In this document: piece by piece, positions 44,696-63,138 of the stretch
Layout of the letters: each line of letters begins with the position of its first letter
Position numbering within the stretch: the stretch's first letter is position 1
Assembly: GCF_009914755.1 (NCBI RefSeq)
Contig: NC_060925.1
Origin: the human T2T-CHM13v2.0 reference genome, Homo sapiens
Reading direction: 5' to 3' (one strand)
DNA length: 64,000 bases
Position numbers and translations under genes: made by a program
Notes under the pieces: generated by a model
Seen by the model: the letters and a program-made list of their open reading frames with translations, nothing else
Told to the model about the DNA's origin: nothing
Databases searched by the model: none

Positions 44696-46039
44696 TGTTC
44701 CATTCTTTTCGAGCAAGCAGGAAGCCACGGGGCTACCTCAGTTGCTCTTAGCCAGTAGCTCTCTCCACAGGTAGGCCTTCATCGGAGGGGAAAAGCCACC
44801 TTAGGGTTCCAGAGCTCAAGGGCGAATGATGCTTTCCACCCACTAATTTAAATACGGAAGCATCAGATTGTCTGCTTCTCAAGGAAAAGAGCTGTTACCA
44901 TCTCTGTCTCTTCAATGGGACCCACTCCTGGGCCCCACAGCAGGGCAGGTGCTCAGATGAATGGTGGCCGCCTGCCTGTGTCAGAGGGTCGGCCTAGGCA
45001 GGTTCCCCAGTCCGCTGGCCCGGGACGTCCTCCTCTCTCCCGGCCGCTCACTGTTCAGGACAGCCCGGGCCCCCCCCTGGGGCCTTGCAGGAGAGCTTCT
45101 GTGATCCACTGGGTGGCTTTGAGGGTAGCTCCCAGGAAAGGCTGCCTCAGCCCCAGCGTGATGGGGACGGGTAGGGGCCGATGAGGCTTCCCAGAGCAGC
45201 GATGGCCTTAGGTATTGCCAGAAGGAAACCTACTTTTCCTCCAAGATCAGAGGGAAGGATGAGGTGGGGTGTTGGAGCATCACCATATATATACATCACA
45301 CACACAGGGAAACACTCCTACTTGGATGGAGGATCTTTGCTGTTCTGTTGAGGCCAGCCTGATCCTGGAGGCAGGGCAGGGCCTGGCTGTTGCCCAGGCT
45401 CCAAAGAGGCGCCAGGGCGTCCCTTAGTCCTTACACTTTCTCCAGAACCTGCGGGCAGCAGGAGGCCCTTGTCGGGACAGGCAAGGGGGGCGGTGGTGCG
45501 GAATTGTGGGCGTGGCAGTCGGAGGCGCCAAGCCCGGGGAGGCGGGGCTTCCTGGGAGCATGCGTAGTGCCGGCTCTGCCTGGGCGGGGTCCTAGGCTGC
45601 TGCTCCCGCCTCCCCCGGCACAGGTAGGGCGCCCCGCAGACCCGGACAACGCTGGGTGTGGCTGAAAACAGGGAGTCATGGTGCGTTCTGGGGAAGGGTC
45701 AGGGCTGGGGGCTCGGGCCCCTGGACCAAAGACTCTAGCCAAATCCATCGGAGGCTGAGCAGGGCGATGGGGCAGGGCCGGGGGAGCCGTGGGGAAATGG
45801 GAGGGTGTGGGCCGAGCAGCGCCGGAGGCAGGTACCGACCATCGCCGGGTTTCCCAGAGGGCAGTGGTACCTGTGCCCACATGTGCGGCCTTTTTTGTAA
45901 AGGAACCTATCCCAACCCGAAGGCCCAAACGTGTGGCCGTGTAAGTTTAGTTGTGCCCGGAGTCCCAGGAGAGCCCGGACTGAGGGCAGCCAGAGGCCGG
46001 TGTCCGCAGAACGGCCCACGAGGCCTTCGGCTCAGTAGC

Positions 46040-46252
46040 CTGGAGTTTGAAATGCACCTTGAGCTTTAATGGCCTTTTCCTTGTGAGAATTCGAGTTAAC
46101 GTGCCTGCTGGTGCTTTTGATGGGTGAGGACGGTGAGGCAGGCCACACATCTCGCTTCTTTCCAGAACACTTCTGGGTAGTCGTTCAATTCCACATTTAA
46201 TCCAAAGCCAACAGTTCCATGGGTGACTGTGCTGCTGGCTGTAGGAAGCCGA
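46040..46252 (-). other. AKT3: Probable non-coding terminal exon of the AKT3 short-C-terminus isoform (3' end approximate)
   Basis: Minus-strand acceptor atcctcatctgtccacAG|TCGGC (plus ct 46253-54; second candidate AG at 46239-40); ATTAAA on minus at 46070-46065; distance from the 57540 donor (~11.3 kb) agrees with my recollection of the variant-2 structure. Confidence 0.65.
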
Positions 46253-46815
46253 CTGTGGACAGATGAGGATAATGGTCTGAGTGAATTAGCAAGTCTGGAG
46301 AGGAGCGCCCATCAGCAGAATGACAAATTTAGGATCTTTAAAGACATCTGGTCAGCGATGCCGGAGCTCGTGATTGACTGAGTGATTAATAATGGAAAAC
46401 CCTTACTTCAGTGTTTCCACGGCCCTCACCCACTTCCCCAGCCGGGGCGGCCGTCTGCTCAGCCTGCCAGAGACCTTTCCAGCTGAACAATGGCGGCATT
46501 TAGGCCCCTCATCTTTGACCTCTGCTTGGGAGTTCAAAGCTTCCTTTTCCTTCTACTTACCCCACTTATCTGCGTGTTTTCTAATTGATAGTGTACTGAG
46601 ATGGCTCCCAGTTCCCACGCACATTTGCTAGAATGTTACCTTCACACAGTGCGTACCAAGGACCTAGTGCCAGCCAGAGCCTGGCACCTCAGGGTCACCC
46701 TAGGCGTCCTGCTCATGGTTCCCTATCAGGGGCTTCCCTCAGATACACACAGCCCCTGGGCCTGTTGAAAGGCTGACGTTATCCCTCTTTAATTCTGCGG
46801 TGGATTTTTCTCCAG

Positions 46816-46942
46816 GCTAAGGCAGCTGGATAAGCACAGCCAGGCCACAGCCCAGCAGCTGGTGCAGCTCCTCAGCAAGCAGAACCAGCTTCTCCTGGAG
46901 AGGCAGAGCCTGTCGGAAGAGGTGGACCGGCTGCGGACCCAG
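46816..46942 (+). CDS. SDCCAG8: SDCCAG8 penultimate coding exon (127 nt): (R)LRQLDKHSQATAQQLVQLLSKQNQLLLERQSLSEEVDRLRTQ, coiled-coil
   Basis: Acceptor tttttctccAG|G at 46814-15; donor CAG|GTactg at 46943; 1 nt plus 42 open codons with heptad Leu/Gln pattern; peptide recognised as the SDCCAG8 (NPHP10/BBS16) C-terminal region; phase 0 end joins in frame to 57560. Confidence 0.96.
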
Positions 46943-49929
46943 GTACTGTGCAGAACGCGGCGCAGGTGGGAGTCCTTGGGCGGGCGTCTACAGGTGGATC
47001 TTTTATGCACCTCAACAGGCCGGCTTTCTCACGGATCACATCGGTTAGCAGTAAGCTGGGAGGGAGGTCCCGAAGACTGTGCTGGGCACAGTGCAGGACC
47101 CAGAGAAGCGGAGCCATGGGCCCGTCCTGGTGAGGGAGTTAAAGTCCGTGCAGGTGAACAGACCCCGGCCCGCGAATCAACGAACCACACCGAGTGCCAA
47201 GTTGCGCCGTGCAGGCTGCGGAGGGTGCGAGAGCAGGGAGAAGCGGGAGGACGGCCGTGGGCGGCAGAACAGGCTTTTTGGAGGATGGTGGCCTTGAGCT
47301 GCCTCTGAAGGTCGTGTATGGTTTGAATTGGTTGAGGAAAGAGGTGTTCCCAATTAGCAAAGTCGTCTTGAATGGAAGGCAGGCATCTCATCCTAAATTA
47401 GCTGACTGATTACTGGGCTAATATCTGGAGTGCTTGCAGAGCACCCGGCAGTGTTACACACAGAACATGCATTAATTCCCTTTACCCTTGAACAAGCAGG
47501 CGATGCTGACTTTATTGTCTTCATGGTTTAGATAGGGAAACTAAGGCCCAGACAAGCATTACAGCTGGCAAGTAGGGACACCGCAAACGGAGGCTAAGCC
47601 TGACTCCACAGCCCAGGCTTTCCCCATTCAGGTTAGATCCGGGGCCACCAGCAGGGAAAAGGGAGGAAGGAAAGTGTCCCGGTGAATTTGGAACACAGTA
47701 TGAAACCTCGTTTGCTAAATCGCTTCTCTTCCTGTCAGAGAGGCTGTGCATTTTGCCCCGTCAAGCAGTTTGTTAGGATAATGAGGTGGTCCGTGGGCTG
47801 ACCAAGGCCTCCGCCTTTAATTAGGATTGCACCCAGGTGCTCTGTGAGTGCCCTGGGGACTTCAGGCAGTAAGTGCTTGGAATGATTAATATGAAAAATG
47901 CATCTGGAAATGAAAACGAAGAGGAGTCTCATTCTCCTCACAAAATGACCCTGTGCTCAAGGAACCTGTAAGTACTGACTTTTCCCACTCGGTCCAAAAT
48001 CCCTCTGCCAAACATGTGTTCACAGACAGTAAATGAGCACACCCAGGCGCCACGGAGCTAAGGCCTGGAGGTGGAAATGCCTCTACTGTCCCCATGCTTC
48101 TGAGACTGCTCCCAGGGACTGTGGGGGAGCGGGCCGCTCAAAGTCCGAGCCACAGCCGCACTGCCACAGCTAATCTAGGAGGCGAGGCCTCACCTGGCAC
48201 GCTCCATGGCAGGGCCCTGGAACCTGAATTTTGCCAAGCTGTTGGGATGATTCTGGACGACACTACATTTTGAAAACCTCTGAAGTGTTTGGAGCTGGAA
48301 AGAACAGAGAATTATTCCAGGTTGTGTCACTGTGCTGAATCCCCTGCCCCCGCTTCGGACAAGTAACTTAAGCCTTTTTCCAGCCTCAGTTTCTCCTCTG
48401 CACAGTGGGCATGGTGCACGCCTGGCTTCACGGGCTACTGGGAGTGCTGAGTGCAGGCGGGATGCCCCACGGGCCCTTGGGCACACAGGCTGAGGACGTG
48501 TGAGGGTGTTTCCTTTCTCCCTCATCTTCAGAGGGTCCTGGGAGAGGTTCAGGGAAGGCAGAGGCCTGCAGAGCAGCAGCTGTGGGACCAGTGCCACTCC
48601 CCTCCCCTCTGCTTTCAGGATGACCCCCTCATCCTCCACCAGACCCAGCCCAGAACCCAGCCCTGTGGGCAGGTCCCCAGGGAGGGCCCCAGCAGCACCT
48701 GCTTTAGGCCTGGCCAGCCAAAGATCAGGACCACTGGAGCCACTAGGTCTCCTGGCAGGTGACTAGGCTCTTGTCACATAGGAGGGAGGGACCGTGACTC
48801 CTGGCATGAGTGAATCTTCAGCCTCTAAAGCCAAGAACTCTGTCAGACCTCAGGTTGTGGGGAGTCTTCCGTGGAAGCTGGAGCACACGGCAGCTTCCTT
48901 TGGGCTCTGGACTAGATCAGGAGAACGTGGGCTTTGCCTTTTAACTCCCCATCTGCCTGCTTTACAGCACACTTAGATCTTAACATGGATCACCGATGCT
49001 TAGAAGCTTCTTCCAGGGCTTTAAAAATCTGGCTATTGCCAAATGAGTTGCAAAATTTTCACAAAACGCATTAAAAAAACCCCAAACCTCAAAAAATCCT
49101 CAGAAAAACTAGCAGGTCTTTCTTTCTTCTTTTGCCTGAAGCAACAGCAATGATTTGCCCATTCCTGTGCTATCTGATACTGGCCCATCTGGCTCATCTC
49201 TAAAGCGGCCTTTCAGATTCAAATATTACACTTGGAGTTATTTTAATATGAACATGACAAAAGAAATTTGGTAGAGGGAATGTTGGCTTTCAGTTGCAAA
49301 TACTAGTGGTCAGAGAGGAGGCAGGGATCCAGGTTTGCAAGCTCTCTGCTGAATATCTAAACCCAGAGCCTGCTTTTTCTGGCTAAGCCTGGCCTTCACC
49401 TCTAGGTAGGGGCTGTCAGTGGGCTTCAGCCTCTGCGATGCCTTCTTGTCATGGAATCAGCTTGAGTTGTGAGTTAGGCTTCTGCTGAGCCATGATGTGG
49501 GCGAGGCTGCTGTAGGTTCGAGCAGGTATTTTGGATGCGGTGCCGCCTGAGGGCTCCGGAGTGCTCAGCCACCCTCTCTGTTTTCCTGGAGTGGCCTGTG
49601 GGTCCAGATCTTGGGCAGCTGAGGGTTAGAGCTGTCCTCATGTCCGGGTTAGAGATGGTTTAACTAAAGGCTTCCGTTTTCTCAGCCTGGATGAGTTAAG
49701 CTTAACTTAATTTTGCATGTCAAACTCTAAACATCTCTGTCCACTTAATACCCAGAAGAGAATGGGTCGGGCAATGGTTCCAAAGCAAAGTCCACCCCTT
49801 TCCTTCCCTCCCTGTCCTGGGTCCTGAGCCCCGCTGCCCCTGGTGGTGGGGCTCAGGCTGGCCTGTGGCCTCCAACAGGAAGTGTCTAGCCTGTTGGCAG
49901 GCTTCATTATTCTAATTGTTTCTGCTTGA

Positions 49930-50725
<796 letters not shown>

Positions 50726-53700
50726 TAGGGTGACTACAAATAATGGCATTATTGATCTCCTGCCTCACCTGGGTTCGGAAACAACTTCAAGAAAATAGCT
50801 TTTAAATGTCATGAAATGGCTCTTACTTGTCCTTGTGGAGAAACAGACACTGAAGCACTAGCCCAGCTTTGCCTAGATGCAGTTCCCCACACTCTGTATT
50901 CCGGGAGGGTCAGGGCCTCCAGACACACACCCTGGCCTGTCTTTTGTTTGAGACTGGGCTGGGTAGTCGCACTCTCGCCCTCTTGAGAGGCAGGCCCTGG
51001 CTGGGGGAGGCTGAAACCTTGGTGGTGGGGGTGGGGGGAGGGGGATTCGGGGTGAGGGTGGTGGGTCTCAGGGGAGTTTGGGCAGGGCCTGACAGCTTGG
51101 AGCAGGGTCAGGGGTCTGCGGCCCAGAGCCTGGGGGCTCTAACATCTGGCTAGGAAGGTTGGAGCCAGCTGGTGAGGAAACATGAGTCTTGGGGAGAATG
51201 GCATCTGGGACAGGGGAAAACAGAAATTATCTGTCCACTTAGAGGATGGTCTCAACCATCAAGATGATTTTCTGTGTCTGCTTTCTTATTTGGTAATGAA
51301 TACGGTTTTGGCTGACTTGCATTTTCTGGTAGCCGTCGTATCCTGAGCAGGCTGCTTGGTTCTGTCTGCAGTGTTCAATCTGGGGAGTGATTCCCTTTTA
51401 GTCCCCTCATATGAATCACTTACAGTTTAGAAAACAGAGTCGGAAACTGACTTGTCAGTGGTTAATCAGTTGGCCCTATGACTTTTAAGCATTCTTGGCA
51501 GTGAATTTACTTTCTAATTTGATTTAAACTTGTGCATGGATCCAGCAGCCATATGTGATTATATTCAAGATCATCGACATTATCTCATTATACCAAAGGA
51601 CTCATAGAAGAGAGCCGAAAACAAGCAGGGGACACAGAGACACAGAAGATGATGAAGGGAGGAAAGGCCCATTGCAACTGGAAGCAAAGGGAGAAGGGAG
51701 GTTCTAGAAAAGTGACAGCTCTCAGGGAGCAAGACTCCCTGCCGAGGGAGGCCTGGCTGCAAGGCGGAGCTGCTGCAGGCTGCCCATGTTAGGCCTTGGA
51801 GGTGTCACCTAATTTACTGTGGTCCTTCCAGGAGCCCTGGGGGCCTCGCCCAGCTGACTTAGGAGCTACCACAAAGTTAGCTACCTGTAAGACAGATGGT
51901 GCTTGAATAGAACAGCAAATACATTGAATAAAATAAATTAAAAAGCCTCCTCCTGAACCAAGATTTTTTGGAAAGAATTCTAAATAGATGAAAACAAACA
52001 ATTTGATTTCAACCAAATTGTTGTTTTTTTGTTTTTATCCTGATTTTCACCCGAATTGTCAGTCTCAAAAATAAACACTGATACATTCCCAGAAAATATT
52101 TTTCAAATAAAAACTGACTCTGTTAAAGTTTGCCCTGATTCTTTCAAAACTGTGTACAAGACACTGTCAACCAAAGTGACTTGCATATTTTTTTAAATAA
52201 ACTTGAACATATGCAGCTAAAATGTCATTAACTCCCTGCTGCCTGAGTGTTTTTAAAAAATGACACAAGACCCTGGGTGCTGCATGTCTAACATAAGCAT
52301 CTCGCGACCTTCGGAGAAACTTCCCCAAACACCTCCAACAGCAGACAGTTAAACTTTTTGTTTTTTGACTGAGCGCCCCGTGTATAATTAATATTGAAAA
52401 GCGCATAGGGCTTCATTTTAGCCAGACTTGCTCTTCCGTTAACAGTTCACTTTGTCCAAGAGTGAGTACTTTCAGAATAAGAATCATGGGAGAAAAGTCA
52501 ATTGAATTTTATATTCCTTCAGATACATTCGCTCTACTTATTGCTTCCTGAGTCAGACATTACATTTCACAATATAAATTCACAATCAAGATTTTAAAGG
52601 GAGCTAAATATTTTAATCCAATTAGACAAGTGAACAAAACACTGAATATTGCATGTAGTGTAGATAAGTGGTTCTTGCCTTTAAAAGACTGTAATTCCGT
52701 CACATTACAACCCCAAATGTCAGTGTTGTCTTTATTTTTAACACTTTCAAACATGAGGCAGCCAGAGGCTCCACTCTCTGCTGTTGGTGACACTGTCTGT
52801 CCTTTGGGAATTCTTAAAATCTATTTACCATGGAAACATGGTTCATATAAAACACAGACCTGCCTGTGTGTAGAGGAAGTTCTCATGACTCAGGGGACTT
52901 GAGAAAGCTGGAAGATGACAAACTCAGACCCCACGGTTGGGAAGGAACCCTTGGGCTTGGGTGCGCCCTGGGGAGGACAGGTGGCACCGCAGAGCCAGGG
53001 CCTCCACCCCGGCCTCATGTGTGCTGGGGCCTCCCTGGCCTGTGCGGGGCCGCCTCCCTCTCCCCGCCAAGTCCAGCTCGAGATGCTGTCTTACGGAACG
53101 TCCCACTTCATGTCTGCAAGGCGGCCTTCTCTGTGGATACCTTTCCATTCCTCTGGTTTCTGCGGCCCTGTTCCTTTCTCGGAGCCCAGAAGCAGCAAAG
53201 CCAAGCCCTGCGGTGGAAGGGAAGGAGGGCTTTGAACTCTGACTGCGGTGTGGAGGCTGTTATCAGGGGCCCAGCCGGGCAGCCAGGAGGGAAGAATGGC
53301 CGCTGCCCTGCGATGGCCTTAACCGTGAGCCCCCGCCTGCTTTGCAGCTGGCAGAGCCAGGTTCCTGGAAAGGCCTGACCCGGAGGGGACGAGGCCCCTC
53401 AGTGAGAACTTCAGTCGCTGTGCTGGGGACAGCAGGGCCGCAGGGGCCTGAGGGTGGCTGACTGCCCCTCGGCTCTGTAGAGGAGTGCTCCCTTCTGACA
53501 GGTGGGCGGTCCTGCTCGAAGGCCGCGTTTCCCCGACGTTCTGCCCAGCATGCTGAGGGCACCTCTCTCCTCAGTGCGTTGGTGGCGAGCCAGAGCTCAC
53601 GTGGCTTATTTCATCCAGGTTGCCTTCCCAATTTGGCAGCTTAATTCCGTAGATATCAAACTGGCTGCCCCTCATCTGCCAGAGCAAGCAGGAGAGCCTC

Positions 53701-55556
53701 GCATGGGAGAGTCTGGACTTTGAGGTCAAACTGCCTGGATTCGAATCTCAGCTCTGCGTTGCTTCAGAGACATGTGTTAGCTTTCATGTCACTTGATTTC
53801 TGGCAGAGAAAAAGAAAGAACCAGCTTCCCTTTAAAAGGAAGTGCCTCATATTACCCAGAGCCCAGCACAGATGATTATGAAACCAACAGGATTAGTGCT
53901 GAGATCATTGTGGGCTTGAAAGGGCCATTTGAGATAAATAACCATTTTGTACAGATAGAAAAATAAGGCCCAGAGAAATGAAGTGAATGGAATTGGGAAG
54001 TGGCTGGGCAGGGAAATGAACTTCTTCTCAGGCCACAGGATGTGTGGATGGGGGCAGGTACCCGAGCGGGTGCGGGCGGAGCCGGGCCTGGCTGGAACAG
54101 CTGCCGAGCCCTGGCCCCGGTGCCCAGAACACGAGGCGGAGGCGGGAGGCGAGCCACCAAGCGAGGCAGGGGCTGCCCTGGAGCTCTGTCAACTCAGGGC
54201 CAGCTTTGAAATGCCCCAGATGGAGGTAGGGGGAGGGGCCTGCCCTCTCCAGTTACAAATGGATGCTTTATTGCCAGACACACAAGGAACAGGACCACGT
54301 TTTGACTTGGCCAAACAGAGACAGCGTGCCAGTGAGCAGAGCGGACAGCAGGGGGGGAAGGGGTTGTTACCTTCAGAAGGGTTGGCTAGAGCCACCCACG
54401 GAGACAGTGAAGTGCGAAGCCCGGGCAGGTCTCCTGTGAGCAGGGGCGAGGGGTGCCACCATCTCCCCGGGCTGCCACTTCTGGCTGGTTTGGGAACAAA
54501 GCAGCAGCAAAGGCTGGCTGGACCCCACAGTGTGGTTGCCTGGGGAACAGTTCAGGTCACCCAGAGCAACTGATTTCTTACACTCAGAACTTAACAAACT
54601 TTAGAAATAAATGAGGCAGGGTTTGTGGAGAGATGACTCCGATAGGATTTAAAATGAGAACAAAGAAAATGGGTTAGCAGCTGTGTGCCTGCAGATGGGG
54701 GCACGTTTCCACCACCTGTGGACAGCACGGCAGGGGAGCAGTGGCCAGGGCGCCCTGTCGCCCCCCTCTGAGCTGCAGGACAGCCACAGGAGGGCCACAG
54801 CAAGGGCCATGATGACAAATGGAAGGGCAGAAGGACGGGAGACACTGGCTGAGGGCTCATGTCCCACTGGCATACGCACGCTCTACTCTCCTGGACGAGA
54901 CCATGATCACTGTGGTGTTGATGACAGGACTTCCTGGAAATAAGCATCGTGGATATCCCTAATGGCAGACAAGCCAGATGTGGGCAGTAACTAAGGCTTC
55001 TGTCTCGGTCAGAGAAATGTGTGTTACCAAAGAGTCAGCAAATGGAGGCGACAAAACGGTGACCTCCTAGGACAAATTATCCAGCCCTCCAGTGCTGACT
55101 GAACGCTCACCATGGGTCAGGCACGGCTGTAGGCACGGGTGGGGGGGGGGGGCGTTGAGCAGTGAACGGTAAGTTCAACAGTGTGAAAGTGGGGATGGAT
55201 ATGGGGCTTCTCACCTGAACCGCAGGAAATACAAAGCCCATAGAGATGGCCATGGCTGATCTGCCGCAGGAAGGAATCAGGCTGACTTTTGATTGGTTCC
55301 TGGTGAGGCCCGTACATCTGTGTCACCCCCATGCAGGCCCACGGAATCAGGAGGTCACCCGTTTCTGGAACAGCTCCGATAGTGATAAATTGCTAGGTGG
55401 CCTGGGAGCCCACAGGCATTATGTAGACTCATCATGAGAAATGCCTGTTTCCTGGAGCTTATCAAAAAATTCCGCAACACATTTTACTTTTACTTCAGGT
55501 CTTTACGCCTATTCTGTATTGTGTGTACGTGGGTGTGTTCTCTACCCAAAATTCAT

Positions 55557-55776
55557 CACTGCAGCCTTGAATTCTGGGCTACAGCAATTCTCCTACATCA
55601 GCCTTTTGAGTCGCTGGGACTACAGGGGTGCGCCACCACACATGGCTAATTTTTACAATTTTTTTTGTAGAGATGAGGTCTCACTATGTTGCCCAGGCTG
55701 GTCTCGAACTCCTGGACTCAAGCGATCCTATTGCCCCAGCCTCCCAAAGCACTGGGATTACAGGTGTGAGCCACTG
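55557..55776 (-). mobile_element. AluJ-like, partial
   Basis: cactgcagccttgaattctgggct...ggactcaagcgatcc...gtgagccactg. Confidence 0.88.
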
Positions 55777-57542
55777 TTGGGTTGTTTTTCTTTTGAAGTG
55801 TTATCTGTTGGGATTTATGCTTATCCCTTTTGTATTCAGTCATCCTAGCATTTCTAAAGTTAGGAAGCCACTGTGTCAAGAGCGAGGCCACCAGGCCACC
55901 TGCCTTATGTGGCCAATCCATGGAGCAGGGGTGGAGGGCCATTCAAACCAGTCATTTAGCAGGACTGTGCTGGGTCAGTTCGATCACCTGGCCTGGAGGG
56001 CACGTCAGCTTGGTGCAAACCCTGCGTTTGACAATCAGATCGTGTTGGTGGCAGTCTCCGTGCTGTCAGTATCCCACTGAGGACAGAAGGGAGTCCCCTC
56101 TGCAATGGCAGGGCTCTAGGGCATAGTGCATGGGGTGGACTCCTCATGGGCCACTCAGACAGGGCCTGGAGAACAAAGCATCCCGTGGGCCCAGGAAATT
56201 GTCCACCTGGCTCCACGGGCCTGGGAGGGCTGTGTGCATGGGATGGCAGGTTTACGAGGAGGAGTGAGGCCTCCTGCCGGAGCCCCACCTGCATTCAGCC
56301 TGAGGCCAGGCCCCCCACCTACTCTAACTACCCTGCTGAGACCACCCCACTACTCACAGACCTGTTCAAGAAAAAGTTGTCCTCAGGGTCTCTCACACAC
56401 TGGGAAATCTACTTGAAATGTAAACATTACTTTTTCTCATTTTTCATAAAAGGCAACAGGCTGATGTTCATATATTTCTCTTGAATGCGGATTCAGTTTC
56501 ACTCATTGCCCTGTCTTGGAAATCCCCATGTTAATGATGGCTTAAATTAGGTTGATAGAGTCCTCCCTTGGAGTCCAGCTTGGAAAATCCTCACTGGAGA
56601 GGGGCAGGCCCACTTCTCTTTTTGGAAGATGGTTCCTAACTAAAGAAAGAGGGACCAGATTGGGCCCCTGGCCCTGCAGTGCGTCCCAATTTATCTGACG
56701 TAGAAACCGGGATTTGGAAAATACCATCCTGGCTTTTCTCTGGACTTCACAATCTAGAGGGCGAGGACTGTGGCCCAGTCACCTTCCCACACAGTGCACA
56801 GTAGAAACTCCAGACATGCTTTGTGGAGTGGAAACATTTCCAGTGGCTTCTGACTCTAGTTCCTGATGTGGTTTAAACTAATTTGGGCAGCCATGGCAGC
56901 AGAGGCCAGGAACAGTATTCAATACTTTCTGAACTTGTGATTCTCCCCCAACCTGATCTGCATGAAGCTACTTTGGAACATTTGTATCTGCGTAAAACTA
57001 AGAGACCTCAGTACACCCAATCCCCTCTTCCAACACATGTGAGGTTTCCATGTGAAAGTACTTTTTCATAGGTTACAATAAATTGCTTGCAGTTACAAAT
57101 TTGGAGGTGTTTCAGCTTGTATTGTTTCACGAGGAATTTCTTAGGGGCACTTGGCCTACACCCTGTTTTTGTTCTAGAATTACCTGCCGTTAAGGTCAGA
57201 TAAATTTTCAGTAAACAGATTATGGCACAAATCAATGTGTCCTTTCCCGGACAGAAGAGATGGCTCTCTGGCCATGTCCTAACACCAGACTGTCCTTATT
57301 TAAGAGGCAGGCGTGTCTTTTGTCTAGGTTGTCTTCAAATTTAACCCATTAAACCAGTTAACCTTATTTCATATGTGAAGGGCTTTGATGTGGACAAGAT
57401 GAGGCACAAACTTTTCATATAATTTCCACATTTTTAGCAACAGGTTTTTTTCTCCAACAACAGTTTTCATCATAAAAGGTGACTAAACCAGCAAATGAGA
57501 AGACAAATAACATTGAAGAACATGAGCTATTGAAACTTACTT

Positions 57543-57548
57543 TTTATT
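57543..57548 (-). terminator. AKT3: AKT3 distal poly(A) signal AATAAA
   Basis: Plus-strand TTTATT at 57543-48, overlapping the TAA stop of the alternative exon. Confidence 0.8.
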
Positions 57549-57590
57549 ATTTTTTCCAGTTACCCAGCATGCCACAATCTGATTGCTGAC
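57547..57590 (-). CDS. AKT3: AKT3 alternative C-terminal exon (PKB-gamma1 / isoform 2), coding part: (C)QQSDCGMLGNWKK*; exon 57590-57541
   Basis: Minus-strand acceptor tcatttatttcactctgttccatccAG| (plus ct 57591-92); same phase as the canonical exon (2 nt first); peptide recognised as the C-terminus of the AKT3 variant lacking Ser472; donor AAA|GTAAGT at 57540-57535. Confidence 0.92.
57560..57589 (+). CDS. SDCCAG8: SDCCAG8 last coding exon, coding part: LPSMPQSDC*
   Basis: Acceptor ctttttattattttttccAG| at 57558-59; TTA CCC AGC ATG CCA CAA TCT GAT TGC TGA; matches the recalled SDCCAG8 C-terminus. Confidence 0.95.
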   Translation, partial: LPSMPQSDC

Positions 57591-57900
57591 CTGGATGGAA
57601 CAGAGTGAAATAAATGATTTACAAAGAGATATTTACATTCATCTGGTTTAGACTTAATATGCCACAACGCACCACGACCTTCCCAGGGTGACACCGCCTC
57701 AGCCTGCAGTGGGGCTGGTCCTCATCAACGCGGGCGCTGTCCCCGCACGCAGTCGGGCTGGAGCTGGAGTCTGACTCTAGCTGAGCAGAGCTCCTGGTGT
57801 ATGTTTTCAGAAATGGCTTGAAGTTATGTGTTTAAATCTGCTCATTCGTATGCTAGGTTATACATATGATTTTCAATAAATGAACTTTTTAAAGACTTGA
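57590..57900 (+). other. SDCCAG8: SDCCAG8 3'UTR (end approximate)
   Basis: Follows TGA 57587-89; AATAAA at 57875-57880 followed by GU/U-rich sequence (gttgtaatgtttccttttt) at ~57901-57919. Confidence 0.85.
57875..57880 (+). terminator. SDCCAG8: SDCCAG8 main poly(A) signal AATAAA (proximal candidate also at 57609-57614)
   Basis: Canonical hexamer with a downstream GU/U-rich element about 20-40 nt later. Confidence 0.8.
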
Positions 57901-60900
57901 GTTGTAATGTTTCCTTTTTATCTTGTAGTGATGAACAAAACACACCAAAAAGGCACATATTTTAACTAGGCCAAAGTATATTAAGGACCAAACTTTTTTT
58001 CCTGCCATTCATTTTTCTTTTCATGATCTATATATCAATCATCCTTCACCTTTAATCAATGTCCCATCAGACTCCATTTTATTTATTTATCGTCCTACTT
58101 TGTGCACAATCAATCAATCAGGAGACACCAGGAAGCACTATGCATTACTCTTTCCATTCTGTTAAACAACGAAAACAGACAAAAAAGCATCTTTGGCTCG
58201 GTGGTGTCAGATTTTTTTCTTCAATACGCAGTATTTGAGAGGAGCCTAAAAACGTACTTAGTGAAATTAGAAAATTTACTTAGAGTATATCAAATATCTG
58301 TACACAGATAATTATTTGTCTAAAATAGTATTTCTACTATACACAATTAAGCCCTCAAATGCTTTAAAGTAATAAAAACGGACACTGGACATACCGTGTT
58401 GTATCTGAGAATGACAAACACTAAAGGCAAGGCTGCAGTTAGTTAGGACAGGTCCCTGACCTTCGGCTGCCCTGCCTGGCCAGCGAGCCATCATCCTCAT
58501 CACCATCTCAACACAGAGCTGATGTCACCATATGCTCAGCCTTGCCTCTCAGAAGTGATGTGGATTAGGCTTTGGAGGCGGTGGCATGATCTACACACAG
58601 AGACCATTTGAATCTCTTGAGCATGTAAAAGGTTCAAGCCTGAAACAGTAGAACTTCTATTCAGATTCAGAAGTTTTTTATTTCATCAAATGTGCTAGAC
58701 ATAAAGGCTGTCACATAAGATATTTTAATTGTCCTTAATTCTGTTTTAGATATACTGTGAATAAATTATACAATATTCTAAAAATAGCACCTTTAAAGAA
58801 TTATAGAGGTCACTTTTTTTTAGCCTCCTGGATCTGTCAACCCCAGTGGTTTTGAGAGAAGAGCACATGTGAGAATGCCCTCAAATTTGGCCGTGTGACA
58901 TACACATACATGCTTGACTCACTCTGGTCCCAAAAGCCATTCCTCTGTCTGGCTTCGTCACAGGAGCAAAGCCAAGTTTCTACAATAGTAGCTTTATGAG
59001 GTAAAATCAGAAAAAGGCCCCATCCAGAATGATTCAACGTGAAGTCAGACTGCAGTCCAGCCATCCTACCCATCTACATCACCCACGTCTAAGTTTGTTA
59101 ATTTGCCATGACATGTTGTTAGAAATACACTCTAAGAAAGGAAATATGCAGAGCAGTACATTATCAGGAAGACGTTAATGAAAAGCTACATTCCTTCAGA
59201 TTCTGGGTCCAAACCGTGTGTTGTATAGATGATTCGGGTCTGAATGTCCCCAGGGTCTGAGACCTCCTTCATCCCTGGCTTCACAGTACATCCATCCTAA
59301 ATCCAGTGCTGAGAGGTCAGCGTTTCCCCTCAGAAGCAGCCGTTCATCAAAGTTTGCACAACCGCACTACTGCCATTTCACTGAAGTAAAAATGATCCCC
59401 TATGTGTGTGTGTGTGAGCTACAAGGAATTATTTCTATATTTTCCTGTCACATTTTATACAAGGTAGGTTAATACCAGCTGGGGCTATTAAAAATCATGT
59501 TTTCATTAAAGAAGATTTAATTTGGGGGGATTATAGAACCACATCCAACAACAATAAACAGAGAAGTAGCAGATTGACATAGTGCTTTATTTAAGCTGTC
59601 TGTACGAAGGAAAATCATGTTCATCCCTATCATATACGTGTAAAAATACTAAGGATGTACAGTGTACAAAAACAGTTTCTCCTAGTTATTCCACATCCTT
59701 GTGGGTCATATACTTCAGGAAATAGACAGGTTTAGTATGACCAACAGTAATAGTAATACAGTTTCTTGGGTTTATAGTTGCATCTGCTTAAAATCCTTAA
59801 CCAGATGACTAGATCTTGCGCAGATCTAATGAAAGAACTAGCAAGGTCAAGAAATGTCACAAACTATAAAGCTACAGGGAGGTAATTCAATTACCAATTT
59901 AGAGGTTTTCTTTTTATTTAAATAAATACTTTACATTTCATGCTTGCCTGTAATGCACTACCAGGAGCAAGATAAGGAAATTCTACTGTAGACAGTACAA
60001 ACAGTAGCAGCAAAGTGTGTATGTTGAGGTGTAATAGAGAGACCCTGCAGTTAGTAAGGAAGGCCCTTACTTTTGTACTCTAGGAGAAGCAAGTGGCCCC
60101 TGCAAGAACAGTCAGCTTTAAGAAGCTGGAAATCAGGGATGGGAAATGGAAAACAATACTTGAATAATGCTATGTAATTAGTGTAGAAAGCAAAGCTGAG
60201 CGCGACCCTGCCAACCATCTAAGCAGAAATGGCCAATTTCCTCCAAGATGGCTGCATTATGACAAGAAGTCAAGCTTCATGACAGTTAGTATGGGCTGGA
60301 GTCTGCAAAGTCTGAACTGTATTCTCATAGAATGATTCCAGGTTTCAGGGTGTTCCACCTGCCAGAACCCAAAACTACAACTATGGGCGACACAAGGGAA
60401 GTTTTAGAAATCTCCCTCTACACGCATTTCTGGTTTTCTATTATTCCTCCATGGCAGCTGACAGATCTGGAAGTGAAAATAGGGGATTCTCAAAATCAAA
60501 GCCAAGAAGACACCTTGTGTGACACCAATGGAGTCTCAGAGGGTGGAATAGAAGTGACTGAGCCCCAGGCATGGCTGGGAACTGAGAGCCAGTGTGAGGA
60601 GTGGCCCGCCTGGGGCAATGTCAGTGCCAGTCATTAATCTTTAAGAAGTGTCCTTGGCCAAGGTCATGGGAATCACTTTAAGATTTGCGGGAGAAAAAAC
60701 CAAAACAACAAAAAGCTGTGTGCTTAGTGTTCGGTGTCATGCTTTCCCTCTAGAGGAGTAAGTGCTCTGAACATCAGCCAGTCTCAGCTTTCTGCTCTTC
60801 CTCTCACCTGTTTCTTTCTTATATAATGGATGCAAGACAACTTAAAGAACATACCTTCTAGTCTACTTTTTTGTCAAAATGAAACATTCAACATAATTCC

Positions 60901-63052
60901 AAGTGAAAAAAAAAAGATTAGCTATGTGTGTAAGTAAGAATGAACTACCATTTACTGTAACTTCCTACTCAATACTAAGGATGAACTTCACTCAGGTAGA
61001 AATATGAAAAAGAAGGATAACGTTGATGTCTGAATATGTCTTAGCTGCCTTAGTAAAATGCCCTTTAACCCCCGTCAGTCCCAGTGGCCCACCCACTGCC
61101 AGCAGTGGTTTCATAGCTATAAATCCACACTTCCAGCGTCAAGAGGCTAAGACATCTGCATATGAATATGATTCATCCTACTTAGAAAGTCACTTGCTCT
61201 TTCATACAATGCAATCATAATACTACGTCATGCTGTAGTCTTCCGTTTGGGAGCTGTCAGAGTTTAACTAAAATACATTTCCATGATCACTCCGCGGAGT
61301 AGGATGGCCTTCTGCTTGCCGCAAGAGTGGCCCCCAGCCCCTAGGACTTCACAGGCTGCTTTGGAAATTGTCAGCTCCTAGCACCAAAGGGTTTAATCTG
61401 AAGATCATCATTAATGAAGGAGAAAGATGAGGTTTGCATACATGCCCCCTTTCAGTGAGAAATGTTGGAATCTGGGGGACATGAGTATATACAGAAAAAG
61501 AAAAGCTGGAGGTGTTCTCTTTTTTTGTTGTTTTTTCCCTGATGGCTTAATTCAGTGATAAATGTACCATGATCCCAAGAAACACACCAGGTTCTTAGCC
61601 TTCACTGCCCATTTCCTAAATACTCAAGATGTGTTCATTTTGCCACGTAAAGATCATTTCTTATCTTCACTCAGGTCTCAATTTTCTTCATTACTTTTTG
61701 TTGCCAGGTCATCATAACGTTTCAAATTCTTAAATGAGCAAACGTCAACAGCTATTTGTTTCATTAACCCCTTGGCATGCATAGTTGGGGATTTTCTCAT
61801 TTTCAGTACCAAGGGGTTAAATGGCAGCATCTCTTCTCCCAAAGCCAAATTCTAACCAATATATTCCATTTCAGAGCCTTATCATTTTTTTTAACAGAGG
61901 AGAAAAAGTGCATGATTCTCATCAGCGTGTACAATCCTTGCACATGGGTCAAAAGTAACTGCAGTAAGTCTATTTTATATAAGTTGGAGCTGCGTTTGCT
62001 AACATGACATACAATTCTCATCACTAAAAAATAAATACTACTGCAATATAAACAAAATCATAAAAGGACATTCAAAGTTTCAACATCTGAGAAAAAGCTA
62101 ATTCACGTAGAACTGAAAGTAAAAAATTAAATAAGGCAAACACCTGTTTACCTTGGTGTAGAAATTTTGGTGAAAAGCAGTATCATTATACCTGTCTACA
62201 TTCTTCAGCCATCAGAGGTGATAAATGTCAAGAAGGAAAAAAGGTTTCCAAGCACAGGGGAAAGATGCTCTCTGGCTCAAATTGTTTCATAAGACCCTTT
62301 AAGTGACCTTGACTGTGCATATGCCTTCAGTTCTTGGTAGAACAGTGTTCACTTGCTCATGATTGCCCGTGAAGTCTCGACATCCACATGTGATATGGGC
62401 TTCTTCTACAGTATCCACCAGGAATTTAAAAAAAAAAAATTATATATATATATATATATCCCAACAGTTGTTCAGTCCTTCTACCAAATGCTTCCTAATC
62501 AATTCCAGCCACAGCTTAGTGATATATGCCTACTTCACGCACGGATCTGATGTGCTTTACATATGCACGCCACCACCCTTCCACAATTGCTTGTTCTGAA
62601 TTTATAAACTAAATCTTCTTAGTCTAGTTAGTTTTTCTCTTCTAGAAAGTTAAAAAATGTACCTAGAATCAGTGTATCTCATTTAGCCTTCACTGAGGGA
62701 AAAACTAAAAGATCAAAAGATGATAATTGGTGCACAAATGAACAATGGTGGGCTCATGACTTCCAAAGGTTGGAAAATTACTTCTTAAAGTTGCTATAAT
62801 AGTAAGACAGTAGCAGCAACAGCATGAGACCTTAGACTGAGATACAATTTCATGCAAAAACAAAAACTGGAGTGTATTTGCGTGTATGTGTGTTTTCATG
62901 AGGGTGAAAGGTGGCGAGGGGTGAGGACCCTTGGCTGGTCTGGGATGTCGGAAGGTGCCCCTGCTATGTGTAAGAGCTAGGACTGGTGATGTCCAGGAAT
63001 CATTTTCAGTAATAAATTGAAGATGACAGTGAAGTAGCAGAATGAAAGAGAC

Positions 63053-63138
63053 TTATTCTCGTCCACTTGCAGAGTAGGAAAATTGAGGGAAATGCGGCCG
63101 CCTCTCATTGTCCATGCAGTCCATACCATCCTCATCAT
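63053..63138 (-). CDS. AKT3: AKT3 (PKB-gamma) canonical last coding exon: (Y)[27 protein letters not shown]
   Basis: Minus-strand acceptor tttcctgcccacAG| (plus ct 63139-40); 2 nt plus 28 codons to TAA (63055-53); AGC-kinase hydrophobic motif FPQFSY with the Ser472 codon at 63077-79. Confidence 0.98.

What the first reader, a model, noticed from the sequence alone, without database searches (positions are those of the whole stretch)
57535..57614. Mirror-symmetric processing cassette: each gene's AATAAA is part of the other gene's polypyrimidine tract
Seen: the SDCCAG8 acceptor tract (cttactt-TTTATT-attttttccAG) contains the reverse complement of the AKT3 poly(A) signal (57543-48). The AKT3 alternative acceptor tract (tca-TTTATT-tcactctgttccatccAG on minus) contains the reverse complement of a plus-strand AATAAA (57609-14), 20 nt after the SDCCAG8 stop. 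Both acceptors end in TCCAG (57555-59; CTGGA 57591-95), and CAGCA (57565-69) and TGCTG (57584-88) are also complementary. Inference: sense-antisense duplexes or colliding polymerases could mask both 3' splice sites and both poly(A) signals at once. That would couple SDCCAG8 terminal splicing to the AKT3 choice between Ser472-containing and Ser472-less isoforms, a candidate reciprocal switch I do not know to be described.
Basis: partly seen in the sequence, partly recalled or inferred. Interest (0 to 1): 0.8.

Follow-up and report, generated by a model that had tools for sequence, protein, structure and literature searches.

The report
Overlapping ends of SDCCAG8 and AKT3
Two human genes, SDCCAG8 and AKT3, meet tail to tail, so the same 80 bases carry splicing and end-forming signals, and even protein code, for both strands; the overlap is real and annotated, but nothing yet shows that either gene switches the other.

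Summary
Three are annotated signals:
- the SDCCAG8 last-exon acceptor (AG 57558-59);
- the AKT3 alternative acceptor (57591-92, minus strand);
- the AKT3 AATAAA (57548-43, minus strand), which lies inside the SDCCAG8 pyrimidine tract and serves the annotated AKT3 end at 57528.

The fourth, plus-strand AATAAA 57609-14, has no annotated 3' end. The annotated SDCCAG8 signal is at 57875-80.

The "mirror symmetry" is no stronger than chance. The predicted hairpins are no more stable than shuffled sequence.

- The AKT3 Ser472-less coding tail (QQSDCGMLGNWKK*) is antisense to the whole SDCCAG8 terminal coding segment (LPSMPQSDC*). The overlap is 30 nt, third codon positions opposite each other.
- A consensus 5' splice site, GTAAGT (57540-35, minus strand), is the complement of the candidate SDCCAG8 branch point.
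- Both AKT3 isoforms share one poly(A) signal.

Best reading: an ordinary convergent gene overlap with dense dual use of signals, each strand processed on its own. Antisense coupling remains possible and untested. Its closest precedent is THRA/NR1D1, so the kind is known. The overlap is real; its interest is modest.

The parts
57528..57528 (-). Annotated 3' end (cleavage/poly(A) site) shared by the main AKT3 last exon (57528-63138) and the Ser472-less terminal exon (57528-57590)
   Evidence: Hub annotation. It lies 15 nt downstream of minus-strand AATAAA. The region downstream on the minus strand is T/GT-rich (T 0.50, G+T 0.60).
57535..57540 (.). Dual-use hexamer. Plus strand: ACTTAC, the candidate SDCCAG8 branch point (A at 57539, 20 nt before the acceptor G). 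Minus strand: GTAAGT, the 5' splice site of the annotated AKT3 exon 57541-57590.
   Evidence: The annotated exon end at 57541 is followed by GT at 57540-39. The branch-point (yUnAy) and 5' splice-site consensus sequences are recalled knowledge.
57541..57557 (+). Polypyrimidine tract of the SDCCAG8 last-exon acceptor
   Evidence: 17 of 20 pyrimidines in 57538-57557.
57543..57548 (-). AKT3 poly(A) signal AATAAA, the reverse complement of TTTATT in the SDCCAG8 tract (intron positions -17 to -12)
   Evidence: It is the only minus-strand AATAAA or ATTAAA within 500 nt on the upstream side of the annotated end at 57528 (the next is at 58051).
57547..57590 (-). Coding part of the AKT3 alternative exon: (C)QQSDCGMLGNWKK, stop TAA 57549-47 overlapping the AATAAA. 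It lacks the hydrophobic-motif serine.
   Evidence: Translation. The canonical exon 63053-63138 encodes ...[15 protein letters not shown].
57558..57559 (+). SDCCAG8 last-exon acceptor AG
   Evidence: Hub annotation (exon starts at 57560).
57560..57589 (+). SDCCAG8 terminal coding segment LPSMPQSDC*. It lies wholly antisense to the AKT3 alternative coding sequence. Nine third codon positions are shared (57562...57586).
   Evidence: The tail is identical in 66 of the 120 best-hit proteins, from primates, rodents and lagomorphs.
57567..57572 (.). GCATGC palindrome, which places GCAUG in the exon of both transcripts
   Evidence: That GCAUG is an RBFOX motif is recalled and was not tested.
57575..57585 (.). 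11-nt palindrome CAATC-N-GATTG centred on shared wobble position 57580, so both proteins contain QSDC
   Evidence: best local self-reverse-complement alignment.
57591..57592 (-). Acceptor AG of the AKT3 alternative (Ser472-less) exon
   Evidence: Hub annotation (exon starts at 57590 on the minus strand).
57593..57614 (-). Pyrimidine tract and probable branch region of the AKT3 alternative acceptor. On the plus strand it is the first 25 nt of the SDCCAG8 3' UTR. It contains TTTATT.
   Evidence: 16 of 20 pyrimidines in 57593-57612.
57609..57614 (+). Plus-strand AATAAA starting 20 nt after the SDCCAG8 stop. It has no annotated 3' end, and its use is unknown.
   Evidence: hub annotation.
57875..57895 (+). 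Annotated SDCCAG8 poly(A) signal (AATAAA 57875-80) and 3' end (57895)
   Evidence: hub annotation. Downstream G+T fraction 0.68.
63053..63138 (-). Canonical AKT3 last coding segment (contains FPQFSY with Ser472) and its acceptor at 63138. This acceptor competes with 57590.
46035..46252 (-). Further AKT3 terminal exon. Its signals (AG 46254-53; ATTAAA 46070-65) fit it being the splice target of the 5' splice site at 57540.
   Evidence: hub annotation. That the two exons are joined in one transcript is inferred.

Best explanation
This is the annotated convergent (tail-to-tail) overlap of SDCCAG8 and AKT3.

On the plus strand, 57535-57589 reads: branch point, pyrimidine tract, AG, nine codons, stop. 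This is the SDCCAG8 terminal micro-exon.

On the minus strand, 57614-57528 reads: pyrimidine tract, AG, 14 codons, a stop overlapping AATAAA, a 5' splice site (GTAAGT), then the cleavage site. This is a composite AKT3 exon. It can end the mRNA at 57528 or be spliced onward, probably to 46252.

The coincidences arise because the consensus signals are near-complements of one another. AATAAA is the complement of a T-rich tract, and GTAAGT is the complement of a branch-point-like ACTTAC. A signal on one strand therefore comes almost ready-made as a different signal on the other.

I infer that the AKT3 Ser472-less exon was built on the antisense side of an older SDCCAG8 terminal exon. I also infer that each pre-mRNA is normally processed in cis on its own. 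The AKT3 isoform choice would then be competition between the acceptors at 63138 and 57590. At the composite exon it would be competition between U1 snRNP at the 5' splice site and the cleavage factors at the AATAAA.

AATAAA 57609-14 and the 5-mer complements are incidental.
For: Shown:
- All signals sit at the annotated exon borders (hub annotation).
- The two reading frames give LPSMPQSDC* and QQSDCGMLGNWKK*, with third codon positions opposite each other.
- Both AKT3 exon forms end at 57528 (hub annotation).
- Symmetry is at chance level: 136 of 2000 and 292 of 1000 shuffles reach the observed values; 14.8% of 1598 tiles hold as many inverted 5-mers.
- The predicted hairpins are no more stable than shuffles: z -0.30, with 71 of 200 shuffles folding as well; z +0.49, with 143 of 200.
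- TTTATT occurs upstream of 4-7.5% of acceptor-like sites.
- Rfam gave nothing above threshold in 56500-59000.
- A short SDCCAG8 terminal tail beginning LP or LS is old. LPSMPQSDC is found in primates, rodents and lagomorphs (66 of 120). Among 120 non-mammalian models, 28 have LP/LS tails, from turtles, snakes, lizards, geckos, sturgeon and lungfish.
- Mouse Akt3 is described as 'tail-to-tail with Sdccag8' (PMC5812623, passages).
- The text of PMC5414975 reports no genotype effect on Sdccag8 expression in Akt3-mutant mice.

Inferred: the order of origin of the two exons, and independent processing of the two strands.
Against: - Independent processing is an assumption; no expression data could be examined.
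- Three signal pairs and two coding frames packed into about 60 nt could reflect selection for coupling.
- THRA/NR1D1 shows that such overlaps can be regulatory.
- The SDCCAG8 tail is invariant where the upstream exon varies in 10 of 42 columns. This is compatible with extra constraint. It is not significant (0.762^9 = about 0.09, my arithmetic), and the set was chosen by the tail itself.
- Whether the AKT3 alternative exon exists outside humans could not be tested.
- One shrew model (P0122, Sorex araneus X2) departs from the tail.
- The mouse result is total mRNA only, and its S3 figure legend reads the opposite of the text.
Confidence: 0.72

Rival explanations
1. One-way antisense control of the THRA/NR1D1 type. 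SDCCAG8 RNA, whose last exon and 3' UTR (57560-57895) are complementary to the AKT3 alternative acceptor, its tract and its branch region (57591-57614), hinders use of that acceptor. This could act through RNA pairing or through convergent transcription. More SDCCAG8 transcription would then favour the Ser472-containing AKT3.
For: The geometry matches the precedent. [quoted passage not shown] There too the alternative exon changes the C-terminus, and the two genes share an antisense coding overlap (PMC3047299, abstract in the search listing). Here the coding overlap is 30 nt. The arrangement is tail-to-tail in mouse as well. The Ser472-less isoform has reported distinct biology: it is pro-apoptotic (reviews PMC8306188 and PMC10670075, which cite Suyama 2018; passages).
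Against: There are no expression or duplex data. [quoted passage not shown] Akt3-mutant mice were reported without a change in Sdccag8, but that tests the opposite direction and total mRNA only. Both are long genes, and the frequency of polymerase encounters is unknown.
Confidence: 0.12
2. Duplexes or colliding polymerases mask both 3' splice sites and both poly(A) signals at once, coupling SDCCAG8 terminal splicing to the AKT3 Ser472 choice in both directions.
For: All four motifs exist at the stated places. Full-length AKT3 mRNA is complementary to the entire SDCCAG8 3' splice site, last exon and annotated poly(A) signal (hub annotation).
Against: The AKT3 poly(A) signal is shared by both isoforms, so masking it is not isoform-selective (hub annotation). 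57609-14 has no annotated use and a weaker downstream context. The symmetry is at chance level. The second TTTATT is a 4-7.5% event.
Confidence: 0.04
3. AATAAA 57609-14 is a real proximal SDCCAG8 poly(A) signal. It would give an mRNA with a 3' UTR of about 45 nt. This does not exclude the other readings.
For: It is a canonical hexamer. A CA lies about 20 nt downstream, followed by TCTGGTTT.
Against: No annotated end lies there (hub table). The downstream G+T fraction is 0.53, against 0.68 at the annotated site, and there is no upstream TGTA. Of the 9 plus-strand AATAAA between 46943 and 57895, 8 are not at an annotated end.
Confidence: 0.2
4. An intramolecular hairpin (UCCAG:CUGGA plus CAGCA:UGCUG) forms in each pre-mRNA and hides its own acceptor.
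For: ViennaRNA places these two helices in the minimum-energy and centroid structures of both strands.
Against: Energies of -15.4 and -15.2 kcal/mol are not better than shuffles (z -0.30 and +0.49). Nested 5-mer pairs of this kind occur in 520 of 1598 tiles. Covariation could not be tested.
Confidence: 0.04

Closest known systems
THRA (TRα1/TRα2) and NR1D1 (Rev-erbα) convergent overlap
   Same: Convergent genes. The partner's last exon and 3' UTR are antisense to an alternative 3' splice site. Use of that site swaps the C-terminus for a functionally different one. There is an antisense coding-coding overlap. The authors propose stepwise exaptation of existing elements (PMC4569393, abstract, introduction and section 8; PMC3047299, abstract in the listing).
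   Different: Here the coding overlap is only 30 nt. The two AKT3 isoforms share one poly(A) site, whereas TRα1 and TRα2 use different ones. The AKT3 poly(A) hexamer sits inside the partner's pyrimidine tract. No G-rich regulatory element was seen. No experiment links the two genes.
Convergent cis-natural antisense gene pairs in general
   Same: Two protein-coding genes on opposite strands whose 3' exons overlap: 336 nt of mature mRNA (57560-57895), or 11.9 kb of gene span (46035-57895), by the hub annotation.
   Different: Most such overlaps involve 3' UTRs only. Here splice sites, a poly(A) signal and coding sequence are all shared.
Composite terminal exons (a 5' splice site competing with a poly(A) site), and the '5' splice site plus poly(A) junction' nuclear degradation code
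   Same: The AKT3 exon starting at 57590 is annotated both as a terminal exon (to 57528) and as an internal exon (to 57541). Its AATAAA and GTAAGT are 2 nt apart. Composite terminal exons: PMC4227790 (listing only). Degradation code: bioRxiv 10.1101/2024.07.23.604837 (abstract and section 6) and PMC9074902 (abstract).
   Different: In the reporters the 5' splice site lies upstream of the poly(A) signal. Here it lies between the hexamer and the cleavage site, so U1 snRNP and the cleavage factors may exclude each other. It is also present in the main, supposedly stable, AKT3 mRNA.
Overlapping early and late poly(A) regions of polyomaviruses (recalled, not retrieved)
   Same: Convergent transcription units whose 3'-end signals overlap on opposite strands, with reported antisense effects.
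   Different: A viral, compact genome. No splice-site sharing of this kind, as far as I recall.

Membership tests
Convergent (tail-to-tail) cis-natural antisense gene pair | Two genes on opposite strands whose annotated 3' exons overlap | tested here: met
   The hub annotation checked against the sequence. The SDCCAG8 exon 57560-57895 lies inside the AKT3 exon 57528-63138, with splice and poly(A) signals at every border.
Convergent (tail-to-tail) cis-natural antisense gene pair | Both transcripts present in the same cells at the same time | not testable with these tools
   No expression data are available here.
Antisense-regulated alternative processing (THRA/NR1D1 type) | The partner's mature mRNA is complementary to an alternative 3' splice site | tested here: met
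   The AKT3 acceptor 57591-92 and its tract 57593-57614 lie inside the SDCCAG8 last exon 57560-57895 (hub annotation).
Antisense-regulated alternative processing (THRA/NR1D1 type) | The alternative exon changes the protein C-terminus in a functionally relevant way | tested here: met
   the canonical tail holds [12 protein letters not shown]; the alternative tail QQSDCGMLGNWKK does not. The functional difference is taken from reviews.
Antisense-regulated alternative processing (THRA/NR1D1 type) | The isoform ratio depends on the antisense transcript or its transcription | not testable with these tools
   This needs perturbation experiments. None was found in print for this locus.
Composite terminal exon | One 3' splice site followed by both a usable 5' splice site and a usable poly(A) site | tested here: met
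   Annotated exons 57528-57590 and 57541-57590. GT at 57540-39 within GTAAGT; AATAAA at 57548-43.
Functional poly(A) signal at 57609-14 | Canonical hexamer | tested here: met
Functional poly(A) signal at 57609-14 | A mapped 3' end 10-30 nt downstream | tested here: not met
   None in the hub annotation table. 3'-end sequencing data were not available.
Functional poly(A) signal at 57609-14 | U- or GU-rich downstream element | tested here: inconclusive
   G+T fraction 0.53, with one GT and two TG dinucleotides in +10 to +50. The annotated sites score 0.68 and 0.60.
True sequence palindrome / dyad-symmetric element | Self-reverse-complementarity above the shuffled expectation, about a single centre | tested here: not met
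   (136 of 2000 and 292 of 1000 shuffles reach the observed values). Four different centres..
Structured RNA element | Folding energy below shuffles, or a match to a known family | tested here: not met
   z -0.30 and +0.49. In Rfam, only one match, below threshold, elsewhere (56755-56902; 18.7 bits against a gathering score of 40).

The most novel reading that the evidence does not exclude
The 57528-57614 segment is a selected two-strand processing module. SDCCAG8 transcription or RNA tunes how often AKT3 uses the 57590 acceptor (the Ser472-less, pro-apoptotic form). The branch-point/5' splice-site and tract/poly(A)-signal sharing also ties AKT3 3'-end formation and mRNA stability to the SDCCAG8 terminal splice. 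This would be a second mammalian case of the THRA/NR1D1 kind, at a locus tied to brain size and schizophrenia.
Probability: 0.1. Interest if true: 0.6.

Novelty: new member of a known kind. Interest (0 to 1): 0.3.

Why it matters
**Variant interpretation.** A change in SDCCAG8 intron positions -25 to -12 (57535-57548) is also a change in the AKT3 5' splice site or in the one annotated AKT3 poly(A) signal at this end. A change in the last nine SDCCAG8 codons also alters the AKT3 Ser472-less tail. SDCCAG8 is a recessive ciliopathy gene, and AKT3 dosage affects brain size (PMC6395382, passages).

**GWAS assignment.** Both genes lie under one schizophrenia association signal, where the causal gene is debated (PMC5414975, passages). 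Any cis-coupling would bear on that debate.

**AKT3 isoform biology.** The Ser472-less isoform is reported to act opposite to the full-length kinase, so its control is of interest.

None of this makes the overlap itself surprising. It is visible in the standard annotation.

Tried and rejected
- **Primary papers on the Ser472-less isoform.** Suyama 2018 (PMC7501878) and a DOI I recalled for Brodbeck 2001 are not held. A search for the isoform's older names found 0 papers. What I say about isoform function rests on review passages only.
- **Conservation of the AKT3 alternative exon.** The window codes only 27 AKT3 residues, below the 40-residue minimum of the protein search.
- **Print searches.**
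  - SDCCAG8 + AKT3 + antisense: 3 papers, none about the overlap.
  - The same two genes + overlapping + 3 UTR: 1 paper.
  - The same two genes + splicing + isoform: 7 papers. One was read, and it gives only 'tail-to-tail'.
  - A six-term search on tail-to-tail, convergent and natural antisense: none of the 15 listed papers names either gene.
  - AATAAA + TTTATT + polypyrimidine tract: 1 unrelated paper, seen in the listing only.
  - Supplementary tables of antisense-pair catalogues were not opened and may list the pair.
- **Readings rejected.** A true palindrome, a significant hairpin and a known RNA family were all rejected.
- **Extra constraint on the SDCCAG8 tail.** 0 of 9 tail columns vary, against 10 of 42 in the upstream exon. 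This is not significant, and the set was selected partly by the tail itself.
Full report
**Observation**

I read 57400-57960 on both strands and checked each coordinate by script.
- TTTATT 57543-48
- TCCAG 57555-59
- CAGCA 57565-69
- TGCTG 57584-88
- CTGGA 57591-95
- AATAAA 57609-14
- the SDCCAG8 stop TGA 57587-89

The hub annotation fits the sequence. The last SDCCAG8 exon starts at 57560, after AG 57558-59. An alternative AKT3 exon starts at 57590 on the minus strand, after AG 57592-91. AKT3 transcripts end at 57528, 15 nt past the minus-strand AATAAA (57548-43).

**What the two strands encode**

Spliced to exon 17, the SDCCAG8 segment 57560-57589 reads LPSMPQSDC*.

The AKT3 alternative exon reads QQSDCGMLGNWKK*. 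Its stop, TAA 57549-47, overlaps the AATAAA. The canonical AKT3 last coding segment (63053-63138) reads [27 protein letters not shown], which holds the hydrophobic-motif serine. So 57590 is indeed the acceptor of the Ser472-less isoform. The tail also matches what I recall for that isoform, but this is recall, not retrieval.

The whole SDCCAG8 terminal coding segment (30 nt) lies antisense to AKT3 coding sequence. The nine third codon positions face each other, which is the least constraining phase.

An 11-nt palindrome (57575-85) is centred on one shared wobble base. It makes both proteins contain QSDC.

1. Plus-strand ACTTAC (57535-40) is a good branch-point candidate 20 nt before the SDCCAG8 acceptor. 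Its complement, GTAAGT, is exactly the 5' splice site that follows the annotated AKT3 exon 57541-57590. The splice-signal consensus sequences are recalled knowledge.
   - The AKT3 exon is therefore composite. It ends either by cleavage at 57528 or by splicing.
   - The splice target is probably the exon 46035-46252, which has a proper AG and an ATTAAA. That these two exons are joined is my inference.
2. The Ser472-plus exon (57528-63138) and the Ser472-less exon (57528-57590) share one poly(A) signal and one end. The isoform choice is between the acceptors at 63138 and 57590.
3. The canonical AKT3 3' UTR covers the entire last SDCCAG8 exon. The mature mRNAs overlap by 336 nt.

**Is it more than chance?**

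AKT3 AATAAA within the SDCCAG8 tract is a fact of two annotated signals. The rest is not exceptional.
- TTTATT lies within 38 nt upstream of 43 of 1012, 24 of 579, 16 of 303, 10 of 139 and 4 of 53 acceptor-like sites in this window. These figures are for rising pyrimidine cut-offs from 13 to 17 of 20.
- The best self-reverse-complement identity of 57535-57614 is 34 of 69, reached by 136 of 2000 dinucleotide shuffles. The local alignment score is 17, reached by 292 of 1000 shuffles.
- The motif pairs have four different centres.
- The region holds seven inverted 5-mer pairs, against a tile mean of 3.7. Of 1598 tiles, 14.8% hold at least seven, and 520 show a nested two-helix layout.
- ViennaRNA does pair UCCAG with CUGGA and CAGCA with UGCUG on both strands. 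The energies, however, are ordinary: z -0.30 and +0.49, with 71 and 143 of 200 shuffles folding as well.
- Rfam found nothing above threshold.

**The second AATAAA**

57609-14 has no annotated end. The annotated SDCCAG8 end at 57895 follows AATAAA 57875-80. Its downstream 40 nt have a G+T fraction of 0.53, against 0.68 and 0.60 at the two annotated sites.

Hexamers not at an end in the hub table are common. Eight of the 9 plus-strand AATAAA between 46943 and 57895 are of this kind, as are 5 of the 6 minus-strand AATAAA in the last AKT3 exon. Use of 57609-14 is possible but unsupported.

**Evolutionary context**

I searched with the exon-17 peptide, which found 378 hits and listed the best 120.
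- 66 of the 120 end in the identical LPSMPQSDC. They come from apes, monkeys, lemurs, tarsier, several rodents, hare and pika.
- The other 54 are fragments or predicted isoforms with other ends.
- Among the 66, exon 17 varies in 10 of 42 columns.

An unnamed representative 85% identical to the query (P0121) keeps the tail. One shrew model (P0122, Sorex araneus X2) reads LSSMPQ and then runs on.

Among 120 non-mammalian models, 28 have short tails beginning LP or LS:
- turtles: LPC[IVA]PV
- snakes: LSS[AV]PQ[PL]
- geckos: LPQVP..
- sturgeon: LPSLSRI[GE]S
- lungfish: LPI

Most bird models use another tail. These are predicted models and may be wrong.

I infer that a terminal micro-exon of SDCCAG8 is old. 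The AKT3 Ser472-less exon was then more likely built on its antisense side than the reverse. I could not test AKT3 conservation or DNA-level conservation.

**Mechanism**

The best-supported reading is an ordinary convergent overlap. Signal sharing follows from the near-complementarity of the consensus signals: AATAAA with a T-rich tract, and GTAAGT with ACTTAC. Each strand is processed in cis.

The alternative is antisense coupling. It has a direct precedent in THRA/NR1D1, which shares four features with this locus (PMC4569393; PMC3047299, listing):
- the partner's 3' UTR is antisense to the alternative 3' splice site;
- the C-terminus is swapped;
- the coding sequences overlap in antisense;
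- the authors infer exaptation.

By analogy the likeliest direction is SDCCAG8 RNA or transcription lowering use of the 57590 acceptor. Mature SDCCAG8 mRNA covers that acceptor but not the AKT3 poly(A) signal.

Nothing here tests this. In print I found only two relevant statements. The mouse genes are tail-to-tail (PMC5812623). Akt3-mutant mice show no change in Sdccag8 expression (PMC5414975 text; its S3 figure legend says the opposite).

**Novelty**

The overlap is in the standard annotation, and the kind of regulation proposed is known. My searches found no description of three details: the shared poly(A)-signal/tract, the shared 5' splice site/branch point, and the coding overlap at this locus. 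The library lacks most subscription journals, and I opened no supplementary files.

I file it as a new member of a known kind, of modest interest.

**In passing**

The main AKT3 mRNA keeps an intact GUAAGU 2 nt after its AAUAAA and about 7-12 nt before its poly(A) junction. In this window, 4 of 116 AATAAA have GTAAGT within 30 nt downstream.

Recent work reports that a 5' splice site together with a poly(A) junction triggers nuclear retention and PAXT/exosome decay. [quoted passage not shown]

Whether U1 snRNP can bind so close to the cleavage factors is unknown.

Noticed in passing
window 57535-57548, minus strand: The main AKT3 mRNA (exon 57528-63138) retains a consensus 5' splice-site motif, AAA|GUAAGU. 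It lies 2 nt after its AAUAAA and about 7-12 nt before the poly(A) junction. Published reporter work says that a 5' splice site plus a poly(A) junction triggers PAXT/exosome decay and is normally absent from full-length mRNAs. In this window, 4 of 116 AATAAA have GTAAGT within 30 nt downstream.
   Followed up: partly
window 57575-57585: The palindrome CAATC-N-GATTG is centred on a shared wobble base. As a result the SDCCAG8 tail (...PQSDC*) and the AKT3 Ser472-less tail (QQSDCG...) both contain QSDC, read from the same DNA on opposite strands.
   Followed up: partly
window 57567-57572: A GCATGC palindrome puts GCAUG into the exon of both transcripts, 8 nt and 19 nt downstream of the two acceptors. 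From recall, GCAUG is the core RBFOX-binding motif. This was a post hoc observation and was not tested.
   Followed up: no
window 57650-57790: A GC-rich patch (64-67% G+C in 100-nt windows) lies within flanks of about 30-40% G+C. It sits in the SDCCAG8 3' UTR, which is also AKT3 3' UTR. No Rfam match.
   Followed up: no
proteins P0055, P0082, P0097; window 57560-57583: Some predicted SDCCAG8 models (two macaque isoforms and one Apodemus model) end in ...VTQHATI. This is the same last exon read in another frame (frame 0). Alternative upstream junctions, or model errors, therefore enter this exon out of phase.
   Followed up: no
proteins: The SDCCAG8 C-terminal tail differs by clade: LPSMPQSDC in primates, rodents and lagomorphs; LSSMPQ plus read-through in one Sorex araneus model; short LP/LS tails in reptiles, sturgeon and lungfish; and a different 16-residue tail (EKKWDADLKQDTDGIK and variants) in most bird models.
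   Followed up: partly
PMC5414975: The main text says Akt3 genotype has no effect on SDCCAG8 expression. The S3 figure legend reads 'do exhibit alterations'. The figure itself could not be seen.
   Followed up: no
window 56755-56902, plus strand: A weak Rfam match to TCL6_3, below threshold (18.7 bits against a gathering score of 40; E 0.55). Probably chance.
   Followed up: no
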